A DNA stretch of 64,000 nucleotides from a virus (taxonomy: Duplodnaviria > Caudoviricetes): the IMG/VR virus record IMGVR_UViG_2932189381_000001, positions 24,038 through 88,037 of that record. One strand, given 5' to 3'. Positions 2,586-49,851 of the stretch are shown in pieces. The position numbers were made by a program, and so were the translations under genes. The notes under the pieces were generated by a model. The model did not search any database. It saw only the letters and a list, made by a program, of their open reading frames with translations, and had not been told where the DNA came from. The stretch's first letter is position 1. Every line of letters begins with the position of its first letter.

Positions 2586-2636
2586 GGCGGGTGCCTTTCT
2601 GGGTTCGCGGGTGGCGGTCAGAGGGTGGTCGGGCTG

Positions 2637-3467
2637 TCAGTAGTCGCCCTTCAGGGAGGTGATGTAGGTGGAGGCGTCGGCCTTGGACATCTCCTCGATG
2701 CCGGCGCGGTCGGTGGGGCCGTAGAAGAAACCGCCGCCCTCACCGGAGCACTCGCGGCGGGCGAGGAGGGTGAGGATGAACTCGACCTGCTTCGGGGTGG
2801 CCAGGGGGCCCTTGGTGCGGCGGGCCTCCTCGAGCTGGGCTTCGCGGGCCTCACGGACGGCAGCCTCGGCGGCTTCGATGGCGTCCTGTTCGGCCTTCTT
2901 CTGGATGCGCTCCGCGGCGCCCGCAGCGTGCTGGGTGGCCCACTGGATGAGGATGTCGGCCTTGGCGGTGGCGGTGGGGTCGGCGTCCGCGTTGATCTTC
3001 TGGTCGAGGTTGCGCGGGTCGCCTTCGGTGGAGCCGGTGACGCGCCAGTAGGTGGAGCGGTCCATGCGGCCGGCGCGGGGGATGGTCTTCTCGATACGGA
3101 ACCCGGCGGGGGTGTTCTCGTAGAACCGGGCGTAGAACTCGGCGTGGGCGCGGCTGTAGAAGGTGGCGTCGTAGATGCGGGAGTCCTTGCCGGGGCCGTA
3201 GCCGGCGGGGGTGCCGTCGGTGCGGACGATGGTCCAGGTGGTGCGCTCCTCGCCGTACTTGACGGTGGTGCCCTGCTCGAGGCGGTAGGTGGTCTCGGTC
3301 ATGCGGGCCTTCCTCTGGCCGATGGCGATGCGGTGGGTGAGGGAGGCGGTGTCGATGACCCACTGGCCGGCGACCTTGGTGGCGGCGATGACGCCGCGGC
3401 GGCACCAGGCGCGGATGGTGCGGATGGTGACGTTGGCCTGAGTGGCGGCGGCAGTGGTGTTCATCAT
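2637..3467 (-). CDS. MerR/Xis-like HTH domain protein
   Basis: N-terminal TTAAATQANVTIRTIRAWCRRGVIAATKVAGQWVID; C-terminal ATPKQ...SKADASTYI motif; GGAGG RBS. Confidence 0.75.
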   Translation of the reverse strand: MMNTTAAATQANVTIRTIRAWCRRGVIAATKVAGQWVIDTASLTHRIAIGQRKARMTETTYRLEQGTTVKYGEERTTWTIVRTDGTPAGYGPGKDSRIYDATFYSRAHAEFYARFYENTPAGFRIEKTIPRAGRMDRSTYWRVTGSTEGDPRNLDQKINADADPTATAKADILIQWATQHAAGAAERIQKKAEQDAIEAAEAAVREAREAQLEEARRTKGPLATPKQVEFILTLLARRECSGEGGGFFYGPTDRAGIEEMSKADASTYITSLKGDY

Positions 3468-3485
3468 GGTTTCCCTCCCCGTGGG

Positions 3486-3540
3486 GTTTTCGATACTGAA
3501 AACCTAGAGGAGGGGGTGAGGGGTTGTCAATACTGAAAAC
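3486..3540 (-). promoter_or_regulatory. Sigma70/HrdB-type promoter overlapped by two operator repeats
   Basis: Minus strand TTGACA(3530-3525)-N18-TAGGTT(3506-3501). GTT(T/G)TC(G/A)ATACTGAAAAC occurs at 3486-3503 and 3523-3540. Confidence 0.7.
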
Positions 3541-3545
3541 GCAAG

Positions 3546-3574
3546 GAGCCTCCCGGTCATCGACCGGGAGGCTC
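3546..3574 (-). terminator. Hairpin terminator at the 3' end of the mini-array
   Basis: GAGCCTCCCGGTC-ATC-GACCGGGAGGCTC, 13-bp perfect stem, followed on the minus strand by CTTGCGTTTT. Confidence 0.7.
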
Positions 3575-3756
3575 AACCCCGCGAGTGCGGGGAGCAGCTA
3601 CCAACACCCCTAAGCCTGGGGCCACCCCCGCTGACGCGGGGAGCAGAACCAACTCACGCCCTACGTAGGGCCACCCCCACATCGGCGGGGAAGAGGCCGC
3701 TTCCCAGCAACCTCCGTGTCCATCGACTGGAACACCCCCGCAGCGGCGGGGAGCAG
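3569..3756 (-). CRISPR. Orphan type I-E-like CRISPR mini-array: 4 repeats, 3 spacers (32, 20, 20 nt)
   Basis: 29-nt repeats on the minus strand: 3756-3728 CTGCTCCCCGCCGCTGCGGGGGTGTTCCA; 3695-3667 CTCTTCCCCGCCGATGTGGGGGTGGCCCT; 3646-3618 CTGCTCCCCGCGTCAGCGGGGGTGGCCCC; 3597-3569 CTGCTCCCCGCACTCGCGGGGTTGAGCCT. All keep the I-E CCCCGC-N4-GCGGGG stem (one G-U) and an 8-nt 3' handle. Confidence 0.88.
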
Positions 3757-3869
3757 CGCCGGTCTCCCGGCGGGCCACCACTATGGCACGTGGCACCGAC
3801 AGCTCGCAGGGAAACCGACAGCCCGTCAGGCCCGCGCCACCTCGAGCGGCGCGGGCACCGGCTGGGCGC

Positions 3870-4631
3870 CTACCGAGGGAACCGCGTCAGCCACGCAGGG
3901 AGCGGCTTGTCGTCGGCCCAGTAGTGCAGCAGCGCGTACTTGTACGACAAGAGGTCCACGGCCCGCACCGAGTGCAGCGCTTCCGGCTCCTCCCGACCGA
4001 GCTGCGCCAGAGCCCGCTGCCGCTTGTCCCGGTACACCTGGGGCCGCTTCCGCTCAAACTGCAGCAGCAGCCGGCGCAGCTGGTCGTCGTCGAGCTGGTT
4101 CGCCGACGCGTACAGGCCGTCGAGTTCCAACCGCATCCGCTTCTCGCGCGCGTCCTCGCCCGCGCGAGCGGCAGCGAGCGCGGAGGAATGTTGGTCGCCG
4201 GCATCTTCTTCATCCGTACTTCTTCCGTCACTACTTACTGAAGAGGTACCGCCCGCCGACGTCGCGCCGACCGACGTGCCGCCGACCGACGTGCCGCCAG
4301 CGGTACCCCGGTCCTGCGGTACGTCGTACACCTCAAGCACGGTGATGAAGCGTCCTCGAGGACCCTTCTCCTTCCGGCGGATCATGTATCCCGCCGCCTC
4401 CAATTCGGCGAAGGCTGCGCGCAGTCCACGCCGCCCCTCGCCGACCACATCGCCGCGGTGCCGCCGTGCACGGTCCGACAGGGCGTCGGCGTTCGTCTCC
4501 CAGCCCGACGGCCGGCTCAGTAGCTCGGCCAGCACGCCGCGCGCCAAGTACGTGAGCCGGTCGTCTCGCAGCAGCGCGTTCGGCAGGATGGTGAAGTTGT
4601 CCGCTGGTCTTGAGCGGCGGATCTTCAGCAC
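3870..4631 (-). CDS. Putative replication initiator (N-terminal winged HTH, phage O-like)
   Basis: NFTILPNALLRDDRLTYLARGVLAELLSRP..W...AFAELEAAGY, followed by GGTSV repeats. Confidence 0.7.
   Translation of the reverse strand: MLKIRRSRPADNFTILPNALLRDDRLTYLARGVLAELLSRPSGWETNADALSDRARRHRGDVVGEGRRGLRAAFAELEAAGYMIRRKEKGPRGRFITVLEVYDVPQDRGTAGGTSVGGTSVGATSAGGTSSVSSDGRSTDEEDAGDQHSSALAAARAGEDAREKRMRLELDGLYASANQLDDDQLRRLLLQFERKRPQVYRDKRQRALAQLGREEPEALHSVRAVDLLSYKYALLHYWADDKPLPAWLTRFPR
4243..4302. repeat. Four tandem 15-bp iteron-like repeats inside the rep gene
   Basis: gaggtaccgcccgcc/gacgtcgcgccgacc/gacgtgccgccgacc/gacgtgccgccagcg, next to a relatively AT-rich tract at 4204-4242. Confidence 0.55.
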
Positions 4632-4716
4632 TCGCCCCGTCCTATGGAGTCGGCGCAGGGTGAAGCAATCATGGAAACCCCTGGTGTTCCGCGGGCCGCA
4701 CGCCCGCTGATCTGAA

Positions 4717-4773: not shown

Positions 4774-5235
4774 CTACGCGGCAGCCTCGTTCGTCAGACG
4801 GCACGTGCGCAGCGCCTGCCGGATGTCCGCGGCCATCCGCTCCAGCTCGACGGCCAACTCCTCGCCCTGCGCCTCCGTCAGGTGCGCGTCATTCGCGCTG
4901 GTGCCGTCGGCCACGACCAGGTGCGCGGCCCGCATCCGCGGGTCCTGCGACGCCGGGTCCGCGGTGAGGTTCACGTACCACTCGAGGACGGCCGTCGAGT
5001 CGTCGCTCATGTCCGGGACCTGAATGCCGCCACCCGGGCCGTAGTGCGTGATGTCCTCGACGGCGACCTCCCGCACCTCCGCGTGGTCGACGTGGCACCA
5101 GTCGGTGGGGCACTGGATCCACACGGTCTGAACGTTGCCCGGACGGCCAATCGACGCCGGCACCAGACGAGGGGCGGCGGGGTGCGGCACCTCGACGGCG
5201 GGACGCGCGGGCGTGGTGCATGTACTCTGCTGCAT
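4774..5235 (-). CDS. DUF6907-like actinobacterial mobile-element protein
   Basis: CPTDWCHVDH...H motif and C-terminal LTEAQGEELAVEL helix; AAAGGA RBS. Confidence 0.65.
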   Translation of the reverse strand: MQQSTCTTPARPAVEVPHPAAPRLVPASIGRPGNVQTVWIQCPTDWCHVDHAEVREVAVEDITHYGPGGGIQVPDMSDDSTAVLEWYVNLTADPASQDPRMRAAHLVVADGTSANDAHLTEAQGEELAVELERMAADIRQALRTCRLTNEAAA

Positions 5236-5988: not shown

Positions 5989-6744
5989 ATGGTGAAGGAT
6001 CCAGCGCAGGGCAAGACTCCGCGCTACGTAGTGATCGCGGATGAGCTGCGTGCGCGGATCAAGGCCGGCGAGTTCTCGGAGACGGGCAAGCTCCCGAGCG
6101 AGCGAGTGCTCACTGAGGAGTTCGACGCGGCCCGGAACACGATCAGGGATGCGCTCCAGCTGCTACGCGTCGACGACCTGATCGAATCGCGCGGCGGATC
6201 GGGTGTGTATCTGCGCAGCTTCCAGCGTATCCAGCAGGACGCCGTCGAGCGCCTGTCTCGGGAACAGTGGGGCGCCGGCCGTGCCATCTGGGACAAGGAT
6301 CTCCAGGGCCGTCCCCGCAGTGAAGACGTGAAGGTGTTCGAGGCGGACCCGCCCGAGCATGTGGCCCGGACTCTTGGTGTTCAGGGGCAGAAGGTCTGGT
6401 GTCGGGACAAGCTCTACCGGGCCGAAGGGCGCATCACCATGCACTCGGTGGCCTGGTATCCGGCTGACCTCGCCGAAGGTACGGCGATCACCGAGCAGAA
6501 CACGGGTCCAGGTGGCGCCTATGCCCGGCTGGATGAGGTCGGCCATGGGCCTGCTCGGTTCAGCGAGGGGATCGAGGTGCGGCTCCCGCTATCGGCTGAG
6601 TCGAAGACGCTGGGCATCACGATGAGCACACCGATCATCCTTATCGTCCGAACGGCCTACGACTCGGAGGATCGCCCGGTCGAGGTCAATGAGATGAAGC
6701 TCGACTCGGACAGCTACAGGCTGATCTACAACTTCCCCTCCTGA
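5989..6744 (+). CDS. GntR/HutC-family regulator with UTRA domain (KorA/KorSA/TraR-like transfer repressor)
   Basis: IADELRARIKAGEF...KLPSERVLTEEFDAARNTIRDAL...GSGVY; UTRA end RTAYDSEDRPVEV; upstream of the tra module. Confidence 0.92.
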   Translation: MVKDPAQGKTPRYVVIADELRARIKAGEFSETGKLPSERVLTEEFDAARNTIRDALQLLRVDDLIESRGGSGVYLRSFQRIQQDAVERLSREQWGAGRAIWDKDLQGRPRSEDVKVFEADPPEHVARTLGVQGQKVWCRDKLYRAEGRITMHSVAWYPADLAEGTAITEQNTGPGGAYARLDEVGHGPARFSEGIEVRLPLSAESKTLGITMSTPIILIVRTAYDSEDRPVEVNEMKLDSDSYRLIYNFPS

Positions 6745-10771: not shown

Positions 10772-11233
10772 ATGAACGCCTCTCTTCGCCGCATCGCCGT
10801 CTCGACCACCGCCACCGTCGCCCTCCTCGGAGGGGCCGCCGCGACCGCCACCGCCGCCGCTCCGGAGCACGAGGCGACCGTCGTCGCGATCGCCCGCACC
10901 GACATCCAGCCCGGCCTCACCAACGGGGTCGCTCCCGCCAACGGTGGCAGCGGCGCACCGCTGAACGGCCCGCAGCAGCAGATGCCCGCCGGCTACCCGC
11001 AGCAGATCCAGACCCAGGCGTCCGGAGCGGCGATCGGCACGGGTGTTGCCGCCATCGCGATCCTCGGCCTCGTCGTCTTCTTCCGGGTCAAGGGCGGCCA
11101 CCTGAAGGTCGGTGACGCGGTCGTCGTCACGATCCTCGGTGTCGCGCTCGCCGGAACCGTGATCGGCGGCATGGCCGATCAGCTCACGGACACCGGTGTC
11201 GCTTCGCTCAGCAACATCCTCGGCGGCCTCTGA
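10772..11233 (+). CDS. Membrane protein of the transfer operon (signal-like N-terminus, 2 TM)
   Basis: GGAG RBS; hydrophobic segments. Confidence 0.65.
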   Translation: MNASLRRIAVSTTATVALLGGAAATATAAAPEHEATVVAIARTDIQPGLTNGVAPANGGSGAPLNGPQQQMPAGYPQQIQTQASGAAIGTGVAAIAILGLVVFFRVKGGHLKVGDAVVVTILGVALAGTVIGGMADQLTDTGVASLSNILGGL

Positions 11234-11294
11234 TCCACCCCTCGTGCGGGGCCCGGACCGGGCCCCGCCCCTGACCCCTGGAAGGACAGGCCCC

Positions 11295-13559
11295 GTGGCC
11301 ACCGAAACCGAGTACCAGCCCTACGAGCCGTTCGAGCCGGTCGACTGGCTCGCCGAGGAGCCGGCCAAGCCCGCAGAGCCGTCCCGCGCCGACCGCGCCA
11401 AGGTGGCGTTCAAGGAGCAGCGCGGCCACGCCGCCACCCGCACGAAGGACTGGCTCGCGGGTGGCGACCTCGACCAGGTCACCGTCTTCGAACTCGCCGC
11501 CAAGAAGAAGCAGCGCAAATACGACAGCGGGCTGACCCAGCAGGAGCGGACTGCTGCCGAAGCTCGCGCCCGCTTCGAAGTCGCCAAAACCCAAGCCGAA
11601 GCCAGCGAGAAGGGCGGTAACGCCAGCAGCCTGGCCGGCTACGCCGGGAGGACCGCCGCGGCAGAAGCCAAGCTCGAGCAGTTGCGAGCCCGGCCTGTCC
11701 TCCCGCCGACCGACTGGGAGATCGCCGCCGCCCGCACCAGTAAGAAGGCAACCCGTGCCGCGATCGTCGCCGGGGGCGGACTGGGTGCCATGTCCGTCCT
11801 GGGCGGGGCGATAGAGCAGGCCGCGACCGGGCAGCCGATGCTCCTTGCCGTGGTCACCACCGCCGCCGGGTACGGCTGGTACCTGATCTCCCGCCCGTTC
11901 GTCCGCGGTCAGGCTGGTGAGGCCCCTTTCGGGATGGCCCCGGCGAGCCTGCCCGCCACGTTCCAGGCGGAGCCGACCGGGGGAGCGATGGGCGTCGGAT
12001 CGCACGTCGTCATGAACGTCGAGCAGCTCGCCGACGACGCCAAGCCCTTCCCGCTGCGGGGCGCGTCCACGCCTGAGCGGCTCGCCGAATGCGTCCTCCT
12101 CGCCGCCCGCGCCGAGAACGTGCCGATCGTCGAGGTGTCGGACGTGACCCGTCAGCCCTGGGGCTGGCAGTGCACGGTACGCGTCGGCGAAGGCACTCCC
12201 GAGGCGATCATTTCGAAGGCGGGTGACCTCGAGACCCGGTTCGATCTGAAGACGAACGGTGTCCGCCCGCAGCCCCTCAGGGCGCGTCGCGCCTGCGCGA
12301 TCCTGCGCTTGGTCGAGGGCGACCCGTTCGCCACCGCCCCCGGCCTGCCCTACCGGGCCCCCAAGTCCCTGTCGATCACCGACGCGTTCCGTATCGGCAC
12401 CAGTGTCGGCGGCGACCCGCTCGAGCTGTCCCTGGCCGGCGTCATGGGCCTGTGGGTGGCGGCGTCCGGCGGCGGCAAGACCGGCATCCTGCAGGCGCTC
12501 GCCGAAGGAGTGACGGCCTGCCGGGACAACATCACCATCGACCTGGATCCGTTCGGGGACGGCCTGGAGGACCTCGGTGACGCCGTCCGGATCACCGCGC
12601 GCAGCAACGAGCAGATCGAAGCGGTCCTGCTGTTCTTCCTGGTCATGGCCAAGGGCCGGGCCCGGCTGCGGGCGAAGCTCGGCATGGGCAAGAAGTGGAA
12701 GCCCAGCCCGAAGCACCCCGCCGTCACGATCTTCTTCGACGAACTGCCGAAGGCCAGCACCCTGGCCAAGCGCCTGTACAACGACCTGCTGCTCGTCGGC
12801 CGCAAGGAGCTGATCGTCGTGGAGGCCGCGTCGCAGGGCGGCCAGAGCTCCTACCTCGGAGCGAACATCGCCCAGATGGTCGCCCTCAAGGCAGTCGGCC
12901 CCTGCAAGGTCGAGGACACCAGGTCGGTCCTCGGGGACGGCTCCGTGAAGGAGGGCTACCTCCCGCACAAGCTGTCCCCGGCGACCCAGACCGACCCCAA
13001 GGACGCCGGGCACATCTTCATCCAGGGCGTGCCCGGGATGGCGGACGAGCCGATCGAGTACGCCGTCCATGAGGTGCCGTCCGCGGTACTGCGGCAGCTC
13101 GGGCAGGAGCGGCTTGAGGCCGGCCTGCTGGACCCGGACCAGGACAGCCTCGACGCGATGCGCGGCGTGGACCTGCCCGAGTACGTCGAGCCGGAGTACG
13201 ACAAGGACGGCGACCTGAAGAAGCCGGCGCCGGTCGAGCTCCTCACGTGGGAGCAGCTGCTGCGCCTGTGCGATGCCGAGCCGCCCGCGGGTGCCGAGCT
13301 GTCGGACGGCCCAGCGCGGGCTGCGGTCGAGGACGCGGTGACCGTCATGGAGAAGGCGGGCGTCGACCGGATGAAGACCGAGGTGCTCCTTGCCGCACTC
13401 CAGGAGTACGACCCGGACGCCTACGGGGAGTTGGGTGTCGACGAGTTCAAGGCGCTGCTGAAGAAGGCGGGCGCCGGGGCGCCGCTGACGCTCGGTCCGA
13501 TCGGTGAGGAGAAGAATCCGCGCGGCTTCAAGCGTGATCGCCTCCGTCACCTCCTGTGA
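11295..13559 (+). CDS. traB: TraB-type FtsK/SpoIIIE conjugative DNA translocase
   Basis: Two TM helices, Walker A AASGGGKT, Walker B TIFFDELP, GRK motif, C-terminal wHTH ending NPRGFKRD; GAAGGA RBS. Confidence 0.85.
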   Translation: MATETEYQPYEPFEPVDWLAEEPAKPAEPSRADRAKVAFKEQRGHAATRTKDWLAGGDLDQVTVFELAAKKKQRKYDSGLTQQERTAAEARARFEVAKTQAEASEKGGNASSLAGYAGRTAAAEAKLEQLRARPVLPPTDWEIAAARTSKKATRAAIVAGGGLGAMSVLGGAIEQAATGQPMLLAVVTTAAGYGWYLISRPFVRGQAGEAPFGMAPASLPATFQAEPTGGAMGVGSHVVMNVEQLADDAKPFPLRGASTPERLAECVLLAARAENVPIVEVSDVTRQPWGWQCTVRVGEGTPEAIISKAGDLETRFDLKTNGVRPQPLRARRACAILRLVEGDPFATAPGLPYRAPKSLSITDAFRIGTSVGGDPLELSLAGVMGLWVAASGGGKTGILQALAEGVTACRDNITIDLDPFGDGLEDLGDAVRITARSNEQIEAVLLFFLVMAKGRARLRAKLGMGKKWKPSPKHPAVTIFFDELPKASTLAKRLYNDLLLVGRKELIVVEAASQGGQSSYLGANIAQMVALKAVGPCKVEDTRSVLGDGSVKEGYLPHKLSPATQTDPKDAGHIFIQGVPGMADEPIEYAVHEVPSAVLRQLGQERLEAGLLDPDQDSLDAMRGVDLPEYVEPEYDKDGDLKKPAPVELLTWEQLLRLCDAEPPAGAELSDGPARAAVEDAVTVMEKAGVDRMKTEVLLAALQEYDPDAYGELGVDEFKALLKKAGAGAPLTLGPIGEEKNPRGFKRDRLRHLL

Positions 13560-34721: not shown

Positions 34722-34736
34722 GCGGCTGGGGGTGCG

Positions 34737-36488
34737 ATGCCTGTCGCCACCGCCGAGCCCGAAGTCCCAGAGAAGGTAGAGCCGTTCACGTTGGGGCCCA
34801 CCTGGAAGAGGGGGCAAGACGGTCGGTTCATTCTTCCCGAGTACACCCTCGGTTGGCACGCTCTTGCTTGGACGTCGACGTACCTGCAGCACTACGCAGG
34901 AAGCCCCTGGCGATACACCCCTGAACAAGCGCGTTTGACCCTTTGGTGGTACGCGATGGACCCGGAGACGAACCGGTTCCTGTGGCGTGACGGTGTGATC
35001 CAACGCTTGAAGGGCTGGGGCAAGGACCCGGTCGTGGCGTCGTGGGGAGCGTTCGAGTTTGTCGGCCCGTGCCGGTTCGGCGAGGTCGCCGACGAGGGCA
35101 ATGAGTGGGGGGTCCCTGCCGGTCAGCCTCTGGGTGTGCAGCATCCGGCGGCGTGGGTGCAGATGGCGGCGGTCAGCCAGGACCAGACCCGCAACACGAT
35201 GACCATTTTCCCGAGCTTGCTGAGTAAGCGGGCGATCGAGGAGTACCGCATCGACCTCGGCAAGGAGATCATCTATGCCGACAAGGGGCGGGCCCGGATC
35301 GAAGCCGTGACGTCGTCACCACGCGCTCTGGAGGGTGGCCGGCCGACGGCCACCTACCCCAACGAGACGCACCACTGGCTGGAGTCGAACCAGGGCCACG
35401 AGATGGACGCCGTGATCGAGCGCAATGCAACGAAGTCGGCGGACGGTCAGTCCCGCACGCTAGCGATCACGAATGCGTTCGAGCCGGGCGAGGACTCGGT
35501 GGCAGAGCGCGCCCGTGACGCCTATGAAGCGATGGAAGCCGGTCGGGTCGCGGACACGGGCCTGTTCTACGACACGCTGGAGGCTCCGCCTGAGGCGAAG
35601 CTGACGGAGGCGTGGATCGAGCCGACGCTCAGGGCGGTACGCGGGGACTCGACGTGGCTGGACATCAGCCGGCTGAAGGCGTCGATTCTGGACCCGCGGA
35701 ACCCTCCGAGCCGCAGTCGGCGCTTCTGGTACAACCAGATCGTCGCTGCTGAGGACGCGTGGATGGCCCGCTACGAGTGGGACGCCTGCAAGCGCGAAGG
35801 CGTGCAGTTGGCCGACAGTGACGAGGTCGTCCTGTTCTTCGACGGCTCCAAGTCCGACGACGCGACAGGGCTGTGCGCCTGCCGTATGTCGGACGGTCTC
35901 GTGACCGCTCTGGGTGTGTGGCAGAAGCCTGCGAACTGGCCAGCGCCGAACACGCCGGGGTTCGTGCCGTACCAGATCCCGCGGGATGAGGTGCACGGCA
36001 TGGTGGAGAATGCGTTCGCCCGGTACCGGGTGCTGGCGTTCTTCGCGGACCCGGGCTCGGGCCAGGGCGATGACGGCGAGATGTACTGGGATTCCTTCAT
36101 CGACCTGTGGGGTCAGACGTGGGGGGCGAAGTTGGCTCTCCGGTCGGTGCTGGCGGGTCCGAAGGCGCATGCGGTGCGTTGGGACATGCGTGACTCGCGG
36201 AATCAGGAGACGTTCACGGAGGCCGTGAAGCGCACCCACGCGGACGTGCTGGAGCGGACGCTCATCCATGACGGGCACAAGGTGCTCCGCACCCACGTGA
36301 TCAACGCGCGCCGCCGGACGAATCGTTGGGGGATCACGATCGGCAAGGAGCACCGTGAGTCCGCCCGAAAGATCGACCTCGCCATCTGCATGGTCGGGGC
36401 GCGGATGCTGCGCCGGATGATCCTCAACTCACCGAAGCGACCCAAGAAGCGCACGCCGGGCAAGGGGAGGGTGGTGGTGCTGCGATGA
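34737..36488 (+). CDS. Terminase large subunit
   Basis: QRLKGWGKDP Walker A, NETHHW Walker B-like motif, FDGSKSDDATG nuclease motif, KIDLA. Confidence 0.95.
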   Translation: MPVATAEPEVPEKVEPFTLGPTWKRGQDGRFILPEYTLGWHALAWTSTYLQHYAGSPWRYTPEQARLTLWWYAMDPETNRFLWRDGVIQRLKGWGKDPVVASWGAFEFVGPCRFGEVADEGNEWGVPAGQPLGVQHPAAWVQMAAVSQDQTRNTMTIFPSLLSKRAIEEYRIDLGKEIIYADKGRARIEAVTSSPRALEGGRPTATYPNETHHWLESNQGHEMDAVIERNATKSADGQSRTLAITNAFEPGEDSVAERARDAYEAMEAGRVADTGLFYDTLEAPPEAKLTEAWIEPTLRAVRGDSTWLDISRLKASILDPRNPPSRSRRFWYNQIVAAEDAWMARYEWDACKREGVQLADSDEVVLFFDGSKSDDATGLCACRMSDGLVTALGVWQKPANWPAPNTPGFVPYQIPRDEVHGMVENAFARYRVLAFFADPGSGQGDDGEMYWDSFIDLWGQTWGAKLALRSVLAGPKAHAVRWDMRDSRNQETFTEAVKRTHADVLERTLIHDGHKVLRTHVINARRRTNRWGITIGKEHRESARKIDLAICMVGARMLRRMILNSPKRPKKRTPGKGRVVVLR

Positions 36489-44925: not shown

Positions 44926-44946
44926 GGCGCTGGGAGGAGGCTCCCG

Positions 44947-47900
44947 GTGCCAGCTATCTCTGTCGGCTCCGTCGAGGTCGATGTCGTCCCCAACGCGCGC
45001 GGCATCCAGTCGCAGCTTCGTGCCGCGCTGGTGCCGCACGCGTCGACGATCGGCGACGAGGTCGGCCGGATCATCGGCCAGCGGATCGCCGCGAACATCA
45101 CCCCCGCCGTCAGGGACGGAATTCAGGGCGGTGCCCGTGCTGCCCGGCCTGCCGCTACTCGGGGCGGCGAGCAGGCCGGCGGTGCGTTCGCCCGGTCGCT
45201 GCGGGCCCGCCTGGAGGCCGCGTTCCGGTCCATGCCGCGGCTGGACGTGCGGCTCTCCGACACCGGAGTGGACGCCGACCTGGCCCGACTGCGTGCCCGC
45301 CTGGAGTCCCTGGCGGGGAAGACGGTCGGTATCGACATCGATGCGGCGACCGCCCGCGCCCAGGCCGCCGACATTGAGGAGCGGCTGCGCCGGATCGGTG
45401 CCGCTCACCCCAACGTCGCCGTGCGAGCGGATACGGCGGCGGCGATCGCGCAGTTGCAGCTGCTGCAGCAGCAGATCGACGAGACCACGCGTGACCCTGC
45501 CCGCATCCGTGTCGAGACGGACGGTAATTTCGGGCAGCGGCTTCGTGCCCAGGTGCAGGCGGCTGAAGCGTCCCTGCCGAACATCAACCTGACGGCGGAC
45601 TCGTCTGCTGCCGAGGTGGAGATCGCCCGGCTGCGGGCCCAGCTCACGGCGCTGCGGGATGTGCGGATCGGCGTCGACATGGACACCGCCACCGCCACCG
45701 CCCGTATCGAGGCGATCCAGGCCCGGTTGCAGGCGCTGTCCGCGTCCGATGCCGACGTGGCTGTGCGCGTGGACACCGGGGCGGCAGCAGCCCAGTTGGC
45801 TGCGGTGCAGGTCATGGTGAACCGGCTGGACGGGCAGACCGCCAACGTCAACGTCCGCGTCTCCGGCATGCAGATGCTGGTCACAGCGGCGCTCGCCTTC
45901 GGGCCCGCGCTGCTTCCGGTGCTTCCGGTGGCCGCTGCCGGGCTGGGTGCGGTCGCTGCTGCGGCGACGGCCGCGGCTGTCGGGATCGGCGGCATCGCCC
46001 TCGTCGCCGCCCCGGCTTTCATGCAGATCGGGAAGGTGCTGCAGTCGCAGAAGGCCGCCCAGGATGCGGCGACGCAGGCGACGATGCAGGGCGGTCAGGC
46101 CGCGTCACAGGGCGCGCAGAAGGCCATGCAGATGGCGTCGGCGCAGCAGTCCCTGGCGTCCGCGCACCGCAATGCCGCCCGGCAGATCCGGCAGGCCGAG
46201 GAAGGCATCGCTGACGCTGCCCGTAACGCCGCAGAGGCGAACGAGCGTGCCGCGCAGCAGGTCAAGCAGGCGAAGCAGGGGCTTGCGGATGCGGTGCAGC
46301 AGGCCGCCGACCGGCAGCAGCAGGCCGCCGAGCAGATCCGCAGCGCCGAAGAGTCCCTCGCCAACGCGCAGCGCACCGCCCGGCAGGCCCAGCAGGATCT
46401 CACCGAGGCCCGCGCGGACGCCGCCCGGCAGCTTGAGGATCTGGAGTCGCGGCTCGCGAATGCGTCCCTGTCCGAGCGGGACGCCGTCCTCGCGGTACAG
46501 GAAGCGCACAACCGGCTGATCCGCATGCGACAGGCCGGCGACAGCGTCTCCTATGCCGACCAGCAGCGCATCCAGCTCGCCTACGACCAAGCGGTGCAGC
46601 GGCTGGAGGATCAGCGCACCGAGACGAAGCGGCTGACCGCGGAGAAGAAGAAGGCGGACAAGGCCGGCGTCGACGGCTCCGAGCTGGTGCTGGATGCGCA
46701 GGAGCGTCTGCGGCAGGCGGAGCAGGGTGTCGCCAGCCAGCAGAAGGCTCTGTCGAAGGCCCGCTCGGACGCGGCTCGGCAGGCAGTGCAGGCGAACCGG
46801 GACATCGCTGAGGCGCAGGAGCGGGTGGCCGAGTCGCAGAAGAATGTGGCCCGGACGCAGGAGGACGGGGCCCGCTCCGTGGCCCGCGCACAGGAGCAGC
46901 TTGTGCAGGCACAGCAGTCGGCTGCGGACTCGATCGCATCGGCACAGCGTCAGATTGCCTCCGCGTCGCTCACTGCGGCCGGGGGCGTGGATCAGGCTGC
47001 CATCGCGCAGGCCAAGTACCAGGCTGAGCTGGCGAAACTCACCCCGTCGGCGCGGGCAACATATGACGCGTTCCTCGGGCTGCGGGACGCGTTCAAGGCG
47101 TGGTCGACGGCGCTGCAGCCGCACGTCATGCCGATCTTCACCCGCGCCCTGAACGGACTGAAGAACTCTCTGCCGGGCCTGACGCCGTTCGTCCACGAGG
47201 CCGCGGACGCCATCACGGGTCTGCAGGACCGGGCGTCGCGCGGCTTCAAGTCGCCGTGGTGGAAGGAGTTCAAGACCGACCTCGAGGGTTCCGTGAAGCC
47301 CGCGATCACTGGGCTCGGGGTCGCCTTCGGGAACGTCTTTGTGGGCATGGCGGGTGTCGTGCAGGCTTTCTTCCCGCACATGGATTCCATCTCATCGCGG
47401 ATGCAGGACATCACGGCCCGCTTCGCGGACTGGGGCACCAACCTGAAGGGCAGCCCGGAGTTCGAGCGGTTCCTGTCGTACTCCTCCGAGCACGGCCCGC
47501 TCCTTGCGGAGACATTCGGGAGTCTCGGGTCTGCGCTCATGAACGTCGCGCAGGCTCTGTCGCCGCTCTCCGGTCCGATCCTGCGGATCGTCGGGGCCAT
47601 AGCGGAGTTCGTGGCCGTCGTTGCGGAACAGGCTCCGTGGCTCATCCTGTCGATCTACGGGATCATCCTGGCGACGAAACTCTGGACGATCGCCATGTGG
47701 GCGTTCAGCGCAGCGGTGGCAGCCAACCCGATCACGCTGATCGTCATCGGCGTGATCGCGCTCATCGCCGTCGTGGTGTGGGCGTACAACCGCTTCGGCT
47801 GGTTCCGCGAGGGCGTCCAGGCAGTGTGGTCGGCGATTCAGACCGGCGCGATGTGGCTGTGGGAAGTAGTCCTGAAGCCGTTCTTCGCCTGGTTCGGCAC

Positions 47901-49851
47901 GATCGTCTCCTGGCTGTGGAACTCGATCATCAAGCCCTACGTGGGCTTCATCATCACCTACTGGAAGATGGTCGGCAACGCCGCACTGTGGCTGTGGAAC
48001 AACGCGATCAAACCGGCCTTCGGATTCATCGCCACTGCCGCGAAGATCCTGGCCACGATCATCGTGGTCATCATGGTGGCGCCGATCATCGCAGGCTTCA
48101 AACTCCTCGCGTTCATCGGCAAGTGGCTGTGGCAGAACGCCCTCAAGCCTGCCTTCGAGGCGATCGCCAAGCTCGCCCTGTGGCTGTGGAACTCGGCCTT
48201 CAAGCCCGCCTTCACCTGGATCGGCGACAAGGCGAAATGGCTGTGGACGAACGCGATCAAGCCCGCATGGTCCGGCATCCAGACCGGCGCGAAGTGGATG
48301 TGGGAGAAGATCCTCCGCCCCATCTTCGCGGCCTTCGTCGATGGGATGAAGACTCTCGGCAGCTGGGGTAAGTGGCTGTGGAAAAACGCGATCAAACCTG
48401 CCTGGGACGGCATCGTCGCGGCAGGTAAATGGGCGTGGGAGAAGGGCATCAAGCCCGTCTTCGACCGCTTCAAGGAGATCGTCCGCAGCCTCAAGGGCGC
48501 CTTCAACACGGCAGTCGACTCGATCAAGTCCGCCTGGGACCGGGTCAAGTCGGTCGCCCGGAAACCCGTCAACTTCATCGTCGACACCGTCTACAACAAA
48601 GGCATCGTCGGCGTCTGGAACAAAGTCGCCGGCGCGTTCGGGGCGCCGAAGCTGGACAAGTACTCGTTCGCCAGCGGCGGCATCATGCCCGGCTACACGC
48701 CGGGCCGGGACGTCCACCGGTTCGTCTCGCCGACCGGCGGGCAGCTGGAGTTGTCGGGTGGCGAGGCCATCATGCGGCCCGAGTTCACCCGAGCCGTCGG
48801 CAGTGGGTTCGTCGGGACGATGAACTCCATCGCCAAGTCTCACGGCTCGCAGGGCATCAAGGCCGCCCTGGCGCCCATGCTGGGCGGCAACCCGCGCACG
48901 TCCACCGACACGTCGCTGCGCTACTCGGGCGGCGGCGTCTACCCGGTGCAGCGGTTCGCGGATGGCGGCATCTTCGGCTGGATCAAGAGCACCGCATCGG
49001 CCGCAGCAGGCGCCGGATCGGAGGCGTGGAACTTCATCAAGAAGGGCGCCTCCTGGCTGAAGGACAGCCTTGAAGCGTCCGCGCGGGCCGGCGTCAAACA
49101 CGTCGTCGACCCGCTGCTGAAGAACTTCCCGGGCGCCGACACCGGCTTCGGGAAGATGATCCGCCGCATCCCCAACAAGATCCTCGACGCCCTGTTCGGC
49201 TACAGCAAGAAGGCCGACGACAAGGGTGCCGGCGGGATTGGCGGGCCACGCATCTCCGCCGCGTTGAAGTGGGCAAAGACGCAGCACGGCAAGCCCTACC
49301 AGTGGGCCGGTAATGGCAACCCCAGCTGGGACTGCAGCGGCTTCATGTCCGCCATTGAGAGCGTCATCCGAGGTCAGAAGCCGCACCGGCGCTGGGCCAC
49401 GATGGCGTTCCACGGCAAGCAGGCCCCTCCCGGCTGGGTGAAGAACGGCAACTCCGCATTCAAGATCGGCATCACGAATGCGGGCGTCGGCCACACCTCC
49501 GGAACCCTCGGCAAGACCAACGTCGAGAGCCGGGGCGGGGACGGCGTCGTCGTCGGCTCCCGGGCCCGCGGCTACAAGTCGTCCCTGTACACCGACTGGT
49601 ACGGCTTCCAGCCCGGCAAGTACGACAACGGCGGCATGCTCCAGCCCGGCTTCAATCTCGCCTACAACGGCACCGGCAGGCCCGAGCCCGTGCTGACCGG
49701 AAGCCAATTCAACGCCCTCGCCCGCGGCGGCGGAGAACTGGGCGACCTCCAGGTGTCGGTGTACGTCGGCAACCAGCAGATCACCGACATCGCACGCGCC
49801 GAAGTCCGCACCGCGCAAGGCGAACTCATCCAGGTACTCAACGCGAGCTGA
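44947..49851 (+). CDS. Tape measure protein with C-terminal NlpC/P60-like domain
   Basis: 1634 aa; Ala/Gln coiled coil, about 22-aa W.W...IKP repeats, FASGG motif, GKPYQWAG...WDCSGFMS. Confidence 0.93.
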   Translation: MPAISVGSVEVDVVPNARGIQSQLRAALVPHASTIGDEVGRIIGQRIAANITPAVRDGIQGGARAARPAATRGGEQAGGAFARSLRARLEAAFRSMPRLDVRLSDTGVDADLARLRARLESLAGKTVGIDIDAATARAQAADIEERLRRIGAAHPNVAVRADTAAAIAQLQLLQQQIDETTRDPARIRVETDGNFGQRLRAQVQAAEASLPNINLTADSSAAEVEIARLRAQLTALRDVRIGVDMDTATATARIEAIQARLQALSASDADVAVRVDTGAAAAQLAAVQVMVNRLDGQTANVNVRVSGMQMLVTAALAFGPALLPVLPVAAAGLGAVAAAATAAAVGIGGIALVAAPAFMQIGKVLQSQKAAQDAATQATMQGGQAASQGAQKAMQMASAQQSLASAHRNAARQIRQAEEGIADAARNAAEANERAAQQVKQAKQGLADAVQQAADRQQQAAEQIRSAEESLANAQRTARQAQQDLTEARADAARQLEDLESRLANASLSERDAVLAVQEAHNRLIRMRQAGDSVSYADQQRIQLAYDQAVQRLEDQRTETKRLTAEKKKADKAGVDGSELVLDAQERLRQAEQGVASQQKALSKARSDAARQAVQANRDIAEAQERVAESQKNVARTQEDGARSVARAQEQLVQAQQSAADSIASAQRQIASASLTAAGGVDQAAIAQAKYQAELAKLTPSARATYDAFLGLRDAFKAWSTALQPHVMPIFTRALNGLKNSLPGLTPFVHEAADAITGLQDRASRGFKSPWWKEFKTDLEGSVKPAITGLGVAFGNVFVGMAGVVQAFFPHMDSISSRMQDITARFADWGTNLKGSPEFERFLSYSSEHGPLLAETFGSLGSALMNVAQALSPLSGPILRIVGAIAEFVAVVAEQAPWLILSIYGIILATKLWTIAMWAFSAAVAANPITLIVIGVIALIAVVVWAYNRFGWFREGVQAVWSAIQTGAMWLWEVVLKPFFAWFGTIVSWLWNSIIKPYVGFIITYWKMVGNAALWLWNNAIKPAFGFIATAAKILATIIVVIMVAPIIAGFKLLAFIGKWLWQNALKPAFEAIAKLALWLWNSAFKPAFTWIGDKAKWLWTNAIKPAWSGIQTGAKWMWEKILRPIFAAFVDGMKTLGSWGKWLWKNAIKPAWDGIVAAGKWAWEKGIKPVFDRFKEIVRSLKGAFNTAVDSIKSAWDRVKSVARKPVNFIVDTVYNKGIVGVWNKVAGAFGAPKLDKYSFASGGIMPGYTPGRDVHRFVSPTGGQLELSGGEAIMRPEFTRAVGSGFVGTMNSIAKSHGSQGIKAALAPMLGGNPRTSTDTSLRYSGGGVYPVQRFADGGIFGWIKSTASAAAGAGSEAWNFIKKGASWLKDSLEASARAGVKHVVDPLLKNFPGADTGFGKMIRRIPNKILDALFGYSKKADDKGAGGIGGPRISAALKWAKTQHGKPYQWAGNGNPSWDCSGFMSAIESVIRGQKPHRRWATMAFHGKQAPPGWVKNGNSAFKIGITNAGVGHTSGTLGKTNVESRGGDGVVVGSRARGYKSSLYTDWYGFQPGKYDNGGMLQPGFNLAYNGTGRPEPVLTGSQFNALARGGGELGDLQVSVYVGNQQITDIARAEVRTAQGELIQVLNAS

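What the first reader, a model, noticed from the sequence alone, without database searches (positions are those of the whole stretch)
3546..3810. Cas-less type I-E CRISPR mini-array carried by a phage/conjugative element
Seen: four 29-nt repeats with I-E architecture (CCCCGC-N4-GCGGGG hairpin plus 8-nt handle) in an intergenic gap. A 13-bp terminator hairpin is fused to the last repeat, and a CATAGT -10 candidate lies at 3785-3780. No cas gene was recognised in the 64 kb. Established: I-E repeats are cut by Cas6e and loaded into Cascade, and phage mini-arrays and repeat-mimicking RNA anti-CRISPRs are known. Inference: a standalone transcript that uses the host Cascade, either against competing elements (32-nt spacer GTCGATGGACACGGAGGTTGCTGGGAAGCGGC) or as a decoy.
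Basis: partly seen in the sequence, partly recalled or inferred. Interest (0 to 1): 0.93.

Follow-up and report, generated by a model that had tools for sequence, protein, structure and literature searches.

The report
Phage-borne mimic of CRISPR regulator RNA
A Streptomyces-type prophage with no cas genes carries a short imitation of a type I-E CRISPR array that most likely hijacks the host's own CRISPR proteins to dampen immunity; this counter-defence trick was described recently, so the case is a good example of it, not a new principle.

Summary
Four 29-nt type I-E-like repeat units lie on the minus strand at 3756-3569. They are separated by 32-, 20- and 20-nt spacer-like stretches (psiS), and the last unit is fused to a 13-bp intrinsic terminator. 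The 88-kb provirus has no cas genes.

This is not an ordinary CRISPR array. All four loops differ while the stems are kept, and two spacers are only 20 nt. The unit R1-S1-R2 is homologous to the two-repeat mini-array between cas3 and casA in Streptomyces plasmid I-E loci. There, the mini-array's spacer matches an AAG-flanked site about 200 nt upstream of casA, as in a CreR-type autorepressor.

Window psiS1 matches one such site at 14 of 20 scored positions. None of 153 real spacers did as well. A soil-metagenome relative keeps the whole array, and none of its 14 listed substitutions falls in a stem.

Best reading (about 0.6): a viral "Cracr array" (Liu et al., bioRxiv 10.1101/2024.10.29.618823). 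Such RNAs load host Cascade, compete with crRNAs and repress the cas promoter.

The host's cas locus could not be reached, and the targets of psiS2 and psiS3 remain unknown. The scan had already flagged two similar elements on other DNA. Verdict: new member of a known kind.

The parts
3780..3785 (-). Candidate -10 element (CATAGT), 23 nt upstream of the first repeat; function not shown
   Evidence: The sequence is present. A generic sigma-70 scan found no promoter in 3300-4000. The 112 nt upstream of R1 (3757-3868) are kept in the X2 metagenome relative with 3 listed changes, none of them in CATAGT.
3728..3756 (-). psiR1: CTGCT-CCCCGC-CGCT-GCGGGG-GTGTTCCA. It supplies the 5' handle for psiS1
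   Evidence: The handle matches the canonical Streptomyces plasmid repeat handle GTGTTCCG at 7 of 8 bases. No change is listed in the X2 relative.
3696..3727 (-). psiS1, 32 nt (GTCGATGGACACGGAGGTTGCTGGGAAGCGGC). It is a CreR-like guide, and its PAM-distal half is self-complementary
   Evidence: It shares 20 of its first 23 nt with psiS1 of viral contig L011. It matches the AAG-flanked casA-upstream site of L018 at 14 of 20 scored positions; 0 of 153 real spacers and 15 of 20,000 shuffles reach that score. It contains a 10-bp hairpin, z = -3.8.
3667..3695 (-). psiR2: CTCTT-CCCCGC-CGAT-GTGGGG-GTGGCCCT, with a G-U pair in the stem
   Evidence: The same CTT + CCCCGCCGATG(T/C)GGGGG signature is seen in the second repeat of the cas3-casA mini-arrays of L005, L016, L018 and L023 and in viral L011.
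3647..3666 (-). psiS2, 20 nt (ACGTAGGGCGTGAGTTGGTT); target unknown
   Evidence: No convincing site was found in 17 + 9 cas-locus regions. No array-context relative was found in IMG/VR.
3618..3646 (-). psiR3: CTGCT-CCCCGC-GTCA-GCGGGG-GTGGCCCC
   Evidence: In the X2 relative, 3 of 4 loop bases, 2 handle bases and the first base differ, while the stem is untouched.
3598..3617 (-). psiS3, 20 nt (AGGCTTAGGGGTGTTGGTAG); target unknown. It resembles psiS2, but with indels
   Evidence: Searches found no PAM-flanked target and no array-context relative.
3569..3597 (-). psiR4: CTGCT-CCCCGC-ACTC-GCGGGG-TTGAGCCT. This terminal repeat has its handle buried in the terminator stem
   Evidence: The same layout, a last repeat fused to a terminator, is seen in viral contigs L010, L008 and L012.
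3536..3574 (-). Intrinsic terminator: 13-bp stem, 3-nt loop, then CTTGCGTTTT
   Evidence: (I5, 100% complementary). In the X2 relative only the 3 loop bases differ.
3870..4631 (-). Upstream gene (253 aa), DNA-binding / replication-initiator-like N-terminus. It is a neighbour and is not shown to be part of the unit
   Evidence: PHROG phrog_1456 (1.4e-20) and phrog_37920; no Pfam hit. Homology of the X2 relative stops at about 3868, so this gene is not linked to the array in that relative.
2637..3467 (-). Downstream gene (276 aa) with an N-terminal HTH_17/MerR-like domain. Two 21-nt direct repeats (3483-3503, 3520-3540) lie in its promoter region. It is a neighbour
   Evidence: PF12728, 8.7e-5, below the curated cut-off; D3. 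A distant relative of this protein follows the mini-array in viral contig L012.

Best explanation
The locus is a viral crRNA-like anti-CRISPR array, a 'Cracr array' in the sense of Liu et al., bioRxiv 10.1101/2024.10.29.618823.

**Proposed mechanism.**
1. A short minus-strand transcript starts near 3775 and ends at the terminator at 3574-3546.
2. It carries four I-E repeat hairpins. The host's Cas6e cuts them at the 3' base of each stem.
3. This releases three crRNA-like RNAs with 8-nt 5' handles: one with a 32-nt guide and two with 20-nt guides.
4. These RNAs load host Cascade subunits and so compete with genuine crRNAs.
5. The first guide (psiS1) descends from the CreR-type mini-array that Streptomyces I-E loci keep between cas3 and casA. 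It steers Cascade to the AAG-flanked site upstream of casA by partial, PAM-proximal pairing. Cascade binds there without cleaving and lowers cas transcription.
6. The 20-nt guides are two 6-nt Cas7 steps shorter. They would make smaller complexes aimed at other I-E variants, or act as decoys only.

**Shown here:** the anatomy, the strand, the terminator, the absence of cas genes, the homology to the cas-locus mini-arrays, the self-targeting logic of those mini-arrays, and the conservation pattern in one relative.

**Inferred:** transcription, Cas6e processing, Cascade loading, and repression of the host's casA promoter.
For: 1. **Only DNA matches.** In 72,556 plasmid records the only matches to the region at E<=1e-5 were two Streptomyces plasmids (75.6% over 82 nt, E=5e-6). 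Both matches fall on a two-repeat mini-array between the cas3 stop and casA of a complete I-E locus, and not on the canonical arrays in the same loci.

2. **Repeat-specific signatures are shared.** Window psiR2 and the second repeat of those mini-arrays both carry CTT + CCCCGCCGATGTGGGGG. Module identity to the window is 69% (L005), 64% (L018) and 78% (viral L011).

3. **The cas-locus mini-arrays behave like CreR.** 8 of the 17 cas3-casA or casA-upstream regions examined hold a two-hairpin mini-array antisense to cas. For 5 of the 7 mini-array spacers tested, the best match in their own intergenic region is AAG-flanked, about 200-240 nt upstream of casA. It matches 14-18 of 20 scored positions, and the mismatches often sit at positions 6, 12 and 18. 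This fits the published I-E CreR, which has an AAG PAM and a target about 140 bp upstream of casA (10.1101/2023.03.10.532045, passages read).

4. **psiS1 matches one such site.** Window psiS1 matches the L018 site (AAG|GTTGAAGGGCAGGGGCGG...) at 14 of 20 positions. 0 of 153 real spacers and 15 of 20,000 shuffles reach 14 against the six sites.

5. **The array is not a normal one.** All four loops differ while the stems are kept. Spacers are 32, 20 and 20 nt. The published Salmonella I-E Cracr array has 24- and 21-nt psiS.

6. **A relative conserves it.** A soil-metagenome contig (X2, record 9) covers 3375-3868 with 28 differences and no gaps. None of the 14 differences listed within 3546-3756 lies in the 74 stem nucleotides (my arithmetic: about 0.002 by chance). 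The three psiS1 changes fall at guide positions 3, 8 and 9.

7. **Other viral contigs have the same layout.** Five IMG/VR contigs carry like arrays with 14- to 32-nt psiS (seven of 20-21 nt) and a last repeat running into a terminator. L010 has 8 repeats. psiS1 of L011 matches the L018 target at positions 1-14 except 6 and 12.

8. **No cas genes** in the 88-kb record.
Against: - **The host's own I-E locus was never seen.** No casA promoter that matches psiS1 well through the seed was found. Against the best site (L018), guide positions 3 and 9 mismatch. Position 3 also mismatches in L018's native regulator.
- **The score is unremarkable in an unrestricted scan.** Over 38,600 positions the L018 site's score (12 of 17) is no higher than chance hits. 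The signal rests on the pre-defined set of six sites.
- **The published filter is not met.** Against the CreR-like spacers available here, psiS1 fails the published filter of 9 or more PAM-proximal matches. Against L018's regulator, positions 1-5 and 7-8 agree while 6 and 9 differ.
- **psiS2 and psiS3 have no identified target or relative**.
- **The promoter is only a candidate**.
- **The conservation count is incomplete.** 5 of the 28 differences in the X2 contig are not listed, so a stem change cannot be ruled out.
- **The psiS1 hairpin is unexplained.** The PAM-distal half of psiS1 forms a strong hairpin, and the model does not account for it.
Confidence: 0.6

Rival explanations
1. Pure RNA decoy (Racr-like). 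The repeat hairpins only soak up Cas6e, Cas7 and Cas5 into dead-end complexes, and the spacer-like stretches are filler with no DNA target.
For: - Repeat mimics on Cas-less viruses are established inhibitors, including two I-E Racrs (PMC10651486, passages read).
- psiS2 and psiS3 have no detectable target.
- Selection is visible on the stems.
- The psiS1 and psiS2 regions fold into extra hairpins.
Against: - Racrs are solitary repeat units. This locus has four units at CRISPR-like 61- and 49-nt spacing.
- psiS1 is homologous to cas-locus regulator guides. Its PAM-proximal 23 nt are kept between the window and L011, while the PAM-distal 9 nt are unrelated.
- It scores 14 of 20 on a real regulator target, which no real spacer reached.
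- Spacer lengths are 32 and 20 nt. They differ by two 6-nt Cas7 steps, which suggests sized guides and not filler.
Confidence: 0.2
2. Genuine mini-CRISPR array for conflicts between mobile elements. Host Cascade and Cas3 are guided by the 32-nt spacer to destroy a competing phage or plasmid.
For: - psiS1 has the canonical 32-nt length and lies between two usable repeats.
- Cas-less arrays with canonical spacers do exist on Streptomyces plasmids: L035 with 3 repeats and L036 with 6 repeats.
- Virus-borne mini-arrays used in interviral conflict are known (PMC6858448, seen in the search listing and abstract only).
Against: - No protospacer was found. The best phage hits are 83-91% matches in Erwinia, Mycobacterium and Salmonella phages at E about 1-3, and plasmid hits are partial. 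IMG/VR gave 0 matches to the spacer pattern.
- Two of the three spacers are 20 nt.
- The repeats are heterogeneous, unlike L035 and L036, whose repeats are nearly uniform.
- psiS1 is related to cas-locus regulator guides, not to mobile-element genes.
Confidence: 0.1
3. Inert remnant. A fragment of a host I-E locus, the cas3-casA mini-array plus decayed repeats, was picked up by recombination and is drifting without function.
For: - The homology to the cas-locus mini-array shows that capture from a host locus happened.
- The array sits at a mosaic junction. The X2 relative loses homology at about 3868, and an isolate contig (X3, record 13) fits 3824-4187 and then runs on with unlike sequence.
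Against: - All four stems and the terminator stem are intact. 14 of 14 listed substitutions in the relative avoid them.
- The unit has its own terminator.
- The same layout recurs in five other viral contigs with different guides.
Confidence: 0.06

Closest known systems
Cracr RNAs and Cracr arrays: viral crRNA-like regulatory anti-CRISPR RNAs (Liu et al., bioRxiv 10.1101/2024.10.29.618823, version of 2026-07-28; outline, sections 7 and 8 and further passages read)
   Same: - It lies on a Cas-less mobile element.
- It has degenerate repeats of the host's CRISPR type.
- It has several short spacer-like guides in one transcription unit. [quoted passage not shown]
- One guide is derived from a cas-locus CreR-type regulator.
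- The paper's host range includes Actinomycetota.
   Different: - The target promoter of this array has not been identified.
- The paper's own filter (9 or more PAM-proximal matches to a CreR guide) is not met with the regulators I could reach.
- One guide keeps the full 32 nt, and its PAM-distal half forms a hairpin.
- The setting is a Streptomyces-type provirus with conjugative-element-like genes.
- I could not check whether this record is among the paper's 219 candidates, because the supplements are closed.
CreR (Cas-regulating RNA) mini-CRISPRs inside type I-E loci (bioRxiv 10.1101/2023.03.10.532045; passages read)
   Same: - Two degenerate repeats flank a guide.
- The first repeat keeps the 5' handle and the second keeps the stem.
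- The guide has partial, PAM-proximal identity to an AAG-flanked site upstream of casA.
- The window's R1-S1-R2 unit is a sequence homologue of such elements in Streptomyces plasmids.
   Different: - CreR lies inside the cas operon region of the host and represses its own system as a feedback loop.
- This copy lies on a provirus with no cas genes.
- It carries two additional 49-nt units and its own terminator.
Racr RNA anti-CRISPRs / solitary repeat units (Camara-Wilpert et al., Nature 2023, PMC10651486; abstract and passages read)
   Same: - It is a CRISPR-repeat mimic on a Cas-less virus.
- It probably follows its own promoter.
- It is expected to sequester Cas6 and Cas7.
- I-E examples have been verified experimentally.
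   Different: - Racrs are solitary repeats without a guide.
- This locus has four repeats at array-like spacing, and one guide is related to a cas regulator.
Virus- or plasmid-borne mini-CRISPR arrays with canonical spacers (Medvedeva et al. 2019, PMC6858448, seen in listing and abstract only; local examples L035 and L036)
   Same: A Cas-less array on a mobile element that depends on the host's Cas proteins.
   Different: Those arrays have near-uniform repeats and full-length spacers that match rival elements. Here the repeats are heterogeneous, two guides are 20 nt, and no protospacer was found.

Membership tests
Cracr array (viral crRNA-like regulatory RNA) | Encoded on a virus or plasmid, outside any CRISPR-Cas locus | tested here: met
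   The window is part of an 88-kb IMG/VR provirus record. Terminase and tape-measure genes are present. Pfam Cse1 found nothing, and tblastn with 16 Cas proteins gave a best E-value of 0.025.
Cracr array (viral crRNA-like regulatory RNA) | Repeat-like sequences resemble the CRISPR repeats of a host-type system | tested here: met
   Each unit has a CCCCGC-N4-GCGGGG stem plus a GTGNNCC handle. This compares with the canonical Streptomyces I-E repeats GTCCTCCCCGCCGACGCGGGGGTGTTCCG and CTGCTCCCCGCGCCCGCGGGGATGGTCCC.
Cracr array (viral crRNA-like regulatory RNA) | Guide matches a CreR/CreA guide over at least 9 PAM-proximal bases (the paper's filter) | tested here: not met
   The best match is the L018 regulator. 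Positions 1-5 and 7-8 are identical, and positions 6 and 9 differ. Only seven plasmid-borne regulators could be compared, and chromosomal Streptomyces loci were out of reach.
Cracr array (viral crRNA-like regulatory RNA) | Guide pairs partially with a PAM-flanked site at a cas (or creT) promoter | tested here: inconclusive
   psiS1 scores 14 of 20 positions on the AAG-flanked L018 casA-upstream site. 0 of 153 real spacers and 15 of 20,000 shuffles do as well. The host's own locus was not available, and psiS2 and psiS3 have no site.
Cracr array (viral crRNA-like regulatory RNA) | Cas-dependent maturation, and repression of cas transcription | not testable with these tools
   No RNA run was available for this DNA (see Tried and rejected). 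The test needs small-RNA sequencing and a reporter assay.
Canonical type I-E CRISPR array | Near-identical 29-nt repeats | tested here: not met
   Core identity is 79-88%, and all four loops differ: CGCT, CGAT, GTCA and ACTC. Real arrays in L007, L036 and L042 are near-uniform.
Canonical type I-E CRISPR array | Spacers of about 32-33 nt acquired from invaders | tested here: not met
   Only 1 of the 3 spacers is 32 nt; the other two are 20 nt. No protospacer was found.
Racr / solitary repeat unit | A single repeat copy without a neighbouring repeat or guide | tested here: not met
   Four copies lie at spacings of 61, 49 and 49 nt.
CreR (host cas autoregulator) | Located within or beside the cas operon that it regulates | tested here: not met
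   There are no cas genes in the 88-kb record. The homologous elements in plasmids do lie between cas3 and casA.

The most novel reading that the evidence does not exclude
The array may be more than a copy of a cas autoregulator. It could be a multiplex, size-tuned guide cassette in which the element uses the host's Cascade as its own programmable repressor.

- The 20-nt guides are 32 nt minus two 6-nt Cas7 steps. They would assemble shortened Cascades that can bind DNA but never recruit Cas3.
- The hairpin that locks the PAM-distal half of psiS1 would limit R-loop growth in the same way.
- The unidentified targets of psiS2 and psiS3 could then be promoters of other host defence genes or of rival elements, not cas promoters.

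Recurrent 20/32-nt mixtures in five other actinophage-type contigs would make this a general design rule.
Probability: 0.12. Interest if true: 0.75.

Novelty: new member of a known kind. Interest (0 to 1): 0.45.

Why it matters
If the reading holds, this is a clear Streptomyces example of a counter-defence described only recently, so far in a preprint and tested in Moraxella, Salmonella and Pseudomonas systems. In it, a mobile element turns the host's CRISPR effector against the host's own cas promoter.

It also points to three further things:
- CreR-type mini-arrays between cas3 and casA are common in plasmid-borne Streptomyces I-E systems (8 of 17 loci examined).
- They tolerate mismatches at guide positions 6, 12 and 18, as Cascade structure predicts.
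- Actinophage-type contigs carry arrays that mix 20-nt and 32-nt guides.

For people who use endogenous I-E systems for Streptomyces genome engineering, resident prophages with such arrays could lower Cas expression without being noticed. The finding does not open a new principle.

Tried and rejected
**Searches that found nothing useful**
- Rfam had no family at gathering score over the whole window. On 3500-3850, only chance-level hits appeared at E up to 10.
- No tRNA was found.
- psiS1 was searched as a true spacer. Phage and plasmid BLAST gave only chance-level partial hits. One of them, in Streptomyces sp. NBC_01483, lies inside a coding region of a record without casA. IMG/VR gave 0 hits to the spacer pattern. 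A degenerate 20-nt pattern hit two 55-57% GC viral contigs inside what looks like coding sequence (read by eye, no ORF call), without an AAG PAM and without similarity beyond 20 nt, so I judged them chance.
- The psiS2 and psiS3 patterns in IMG/VR gave 5 and 49 hits. None has a repeat hairpin next to it, and two high-GC hits lack a PAM.

**Hunt for the host-type casA promoter**
- The single genome-contig scan returned one chance hit in an Acetobacteraceae MAG.
- The single metagenome scan, with L018 CasA as query, returned 3 loci. Only one (L032) has the upstream region, and it has no mini-array.
- No target for psiS2 or psiS3 turned up in 17 plasmid casA-upstream regions or in 9 further cas3-upstream or intergenic regions of five divergent I-E loci and L042.
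- No close relative of the downstream HTH protein was found in IMG/VR.

**Expression**
- No RNA holder was listed for this DNA. This says nothing about expression.

**Read laying**
- The X3 and X4 contigs do not cover 3523-3806. This is no evidence of absence.
- One X2 contig (record 8) shows a joint 3420->3822 that skips 401 nt. Its shorter side is 46 letters and its fit is about 84%. It may come from another organism, so I did not use it.

**Ideas considered and dropped**
- The small hairpin formed by the GGCCC handle and the start of psiS2 and psiS3 is seen in some relatives (L008, L009) but not in L010.
- A register-shifted match of the R3 handle plus psiS3 to the L026 intergenic region rests on a 10-nt similarity only.

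**Supplementary tables.** Supplements were said to be closed and I did not ask for them. Tables S1 and S2 of the two preprints may list Streptomyces CreRs, or this very provirus.
Full report
**1. What is in the sequence**

The window is bases 24038-88037 of an 88,037-base IMG/VR provirus record. It has 69% G+C.

Read on the minus strand, positions 3756-3569 hold four 29-nt units. Each is built as 5 nt, CCCCGC, a 4-nt loop, GCGGGG and an 8-nt tail:
- R1, 3756-3728: CTGCT CCCCGC CGCT GCGGGG GTGTTCCA
- R2, 3695-3667: CTCTT CCCCGC CGAT GTGGGG GTGGCCCT
- R3, 3646-3618: CTGCT CCCCGC GTCA GCGGGG GTGGCCCC
- R4, 3597-3569: CTGCT CCCCGC ACTC GCGGGG TTGAGCCT

Between them lie 32, 20 and 20 nt. The hairpin motif occurs 6 times in the window at up to 1 mismatch, against 2.65 expected, and four of those occurrences are these units.

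R4's tail runs into a perfect 13-bp hairpin at 3574-3546 followed by a T-run. This is the only terminator-like site in 3300-4000.

Three things fix the strand:
- The G-U pair in R2 would be an A-C mismatch on the other strand.
- The terminator is on the minus strand.
- The orientation is shared with canonical Streptomyces I-E repeats.

The 241-nt RNA folds well below its shuffles (z = -4.5, 0 of 200 shuffles as good).

**2. Surroundings**

The array lies between two minus-strand genes.
- Upstream is a 253-aa protein with a DNA-binding / replication-initiator-like N-terminus (PHROG).
- Downstream is a 276-aa protein with a weak HTH_17/MerR-like N-terminus. Two 21-nt direct repeats lie in its promoter region.

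The window also holds a GntR/UTRA regulator, an FtsK/SpoIIIE-like protein, a large terminase subunit and a tape-measure protein. It therefore looks like a tailed prophage with conjugative-element-like genes.

No cas gene is present in the 88 kb. Pfam Cse1 found nothing. tblastn with 16 Cas proteins from two divergent Streptomyces I-E loci gave a best E-value of 0.025.

**3. Where the array comes from**

BLAST of 3440-3900 found nothing in 50,697 phage records and two hits in 72,556 plasmid records. Both hits are 82-nt matches (75.6%, E=5e-6) to a two-repeat mini-array. That mini-array lies directly after the cas3 stop codon and about 500 nt before casA, in a complete I-E locus on two Streptomyces linear plasmids.

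The matches are to this mini-array and not to the many canonical repeats of the large arrays in the same locus. The second repeat of the mini-array carries the same peculiarities as window R2: TT before the stem, loop CGAT, and GTGGGG.

**4. What the cas-locus mini-arrays do**

A tblastn search with CasA found 49 Streptomyces or Kitasatospora plasmids with an I-E casA. I examined 17 casA-upstream regions. 8 hold a two-hairpin mini-array antisense to the cas genes (6 of 9; 2 of 8).

For 5 of 7 mini-array guides, the best match within their own intergenic region has these properties:
- It is flanked by AAG.
- It lies about 200-240 nt upstream of casA.
- It agrees at 14-18 of 20 scored positions.
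- Its mismatches often sit at positions 6, 12 and 18.

The sixth (L016) has an AAG-flanked seed match tied for best. For the seventh (L030), the AAG-flanked site is seen only by eye in the printout.

This is the signature of CreR, the degenerate mini-CRISPR that makes I-E Cascade repress its own casA promoter. The published CreR has an AAG PAM and a target about 140 bp upstream of casA (10.1101/2023.03.10.532045, passages read).

**5. How the window's guides compare**
- MAFFT of the R1-S1-R2 modules gives 78% identity to a viral contig (L011), 69% to L005 and 64% to L018.
- Window psiS1 and L011 psiS1 share 20 of their first 23 nt and are unrelated after that.
- Against the six AAG-flanked regulator sites, window psiS1 scores 14 of 20 on the L018 site (S. 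genisteinicus plasmid) and 5-9 on the others. 0 of 153 real spacers from two canonical arrays and 15 of 20,000 shuffles reach 14.
- L011 psiS1 also scores 14 of 20 on that site, with positions 1-14 matching apart from 6 and 12.

There are limits to this evidence.
- In an unrestricted scan of 38,600 positions the same site does not stand out by score.
- Positions 3 and 9 mismatch.
- The published filter of 9 PAM-proximal matches to a CreR guide is not met with the regulators I could reach.
- psiS2 and psiS3 found no target in 17 + 9 regions.

**6. Conservation**

Logan contigs of four runs were laid on 2600-4700.
- **X1** holds the stretch identically and may be its source.
- **X2**, a soil metagenome, has a contig (record 9) that covers 3375-3868 with 28 differences and no gaps, then runs on with unlike sequence beyond about 3868.
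- **X3**, an isolate run, has a contig (record 13) that fits 3824-4187 and runs on with unlike sequence before 3824. The array therefore sits at a mosaic junction.

The differences listed for X2 within 3546-3756 are:
- the three terminator loop bases;
- three of the four R3 loop bases;
- two R3 handle bases;
- the first base of R3 and of R4;
- one base of psiS3;
- psiS1 positions 3, 8 and 9.

None of the 14 lies in the 74 stem nucleotides (my arithmetic: (137/211)^14, about 0.002). Five of the 28 differences are not listed, so this is a lower bound on what changed.

**7. The same design elsewhere**

A repeat pattern found five other IMG/VR contigs. Each carries a short array of I-E-like hairpins.
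- L010 has 8 repeats with guides of 69, 20, 20, 32, 20, 32 and 25 nt, and its last repeat is fused to a terminator.
- L008 mixes two repeat families.
- L009 and L011 are homologous loci.
- L012 has two repeats and a terminator, directly before a distant relative of the window's HTH protein.

In contrast, two Cas-less plasmid arrays (L035, L036) have near-uniform repeats and 32- to 33-nt spacers. They look like ordinary mini-CRISPRs.

**8. Literature**

The idea that phages copy CreR/CreA is in print. Liu et al. (bioRxiv 10.1101/2024.10.29.618823; outline, sections 7 and 8 and passages read) describe the following:
- 219 'Cracr' candidates from RefSeq and IMG/VR;
- 30 arrays, 20 of them I-E with two or three guides;
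- a Salmonella prophage I-E array with 24- and 21-nt guides that lowers casA transcription and crRNA levels;
- targets in Actinomycetota.

'Streptomyces' does not occur in the main text of that preprint or of the CreR preprint. A full-text search for Cracr plus Streptomyces returned only unrelated papers. The supplements could not be read.

Racr decoys are solitary repeats (PMC10651486).

This scan had already noted two similar Streptomyces or actinobacterial phage-plasmid elements, and follow-up agents read both as Cracr-like. I reached my reading before I saw those notes.

**9. Verdict**

The locus is most likely a three-guide type I-E Cracr array whose first guide descends from the Streptomyces cas3-casA regulator.

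The mechanism rests on homology and on the published behaviour of the class. Nothing about transcription, processing or the true host target was shown here. It is a new member of a known kind, of moderate interest.

Three open points remain:
- the targets of the two 20-nt guides;
- the meaning of the 20/32-nt length classes;
- the strong hairpin in the PAM-distal half of psiS1.

Noticed in passing
window 3483-3503 and 3520-3540 (weaker copy at 3084-3104): Two 21-nt direct repeats (90% alike) lie between the array's terminator and the start of the HTH gene at 3467. They look like operator sites for autoregulation (family D3). The X2 relative has several changes in this stretch.
   Followed up: no
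window 3690-3715 (minus strand): The PAM-distal half of psiS1 pairs with the first bases of psiR2 in a 10-bp hairpin (-18.9 kcal/mol, z = -3.8). Viral contig L011 has a 7-bp hairpin at the same place, built from a different 3' arm. Among the seven cas-locus regulators the feature is inconsistent.
   Followed up: partly
window 5989-6744, 11163-13559, 34722-36488, 44926-49851: A GntR/UTRA regulator and an FtsK/SpoIIIE-like protein are typical of actinomycete conjugative elements. They share the window with a large terminase subunit and a tape-measure protein that has an endolysin-like part. The element may be a composite or a phage-plasmid.
   Followed up: no
L005 3996-4085; also L016, L018, L019, L022, L023, L028, L030: 8 of the 17 Streptomyces or Kitasatospora plasmid I-E loci examined keep a two-repeat mini-array antisense to cas, near the cas3 stop or upstream of casA. 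In at least 5, the guide matches an AAG-flanked site about 200-240 nt upstream of casA, with mismatches often at positions 6, 12 and 18.
   Followed up: partly
L010 about 11230-11700; L008 about 190-500: Viral contig L010 carries an 8-repeat array that alternates 20-nt and 32-nt guides, several of them paralogous. L008 joins hairpins of two different I-E repeat families (CCCCGC and CTCCGC stems) in one unit.
   Followed up: partly
L035 2880-3030; L036 2940-3270: Two Streptomyces linear plasmids without nearby cas genes carry short arrays with near-uniform repeats and 32- to 33-nt spacers behind a TAGCGT -10-like element. They look like true mini-CRISPRs, unlike the window's array.
   Followed up: no
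window 3420-3822: One soil-metagenome contig (X2, record 8) joins 3420 to 3822 and so skips the array and the HTH gene's start. The fit is only about 84% and the shorter side is 46 letters, so it may belong to another organism.
   Followed up: no
window 4774-5235 (minus strand): A 153-aa protein with a DUF6907 domain (E = 1.9e-14) lies two genes upstream of the array. Its function is unknown.
   Followed up: no
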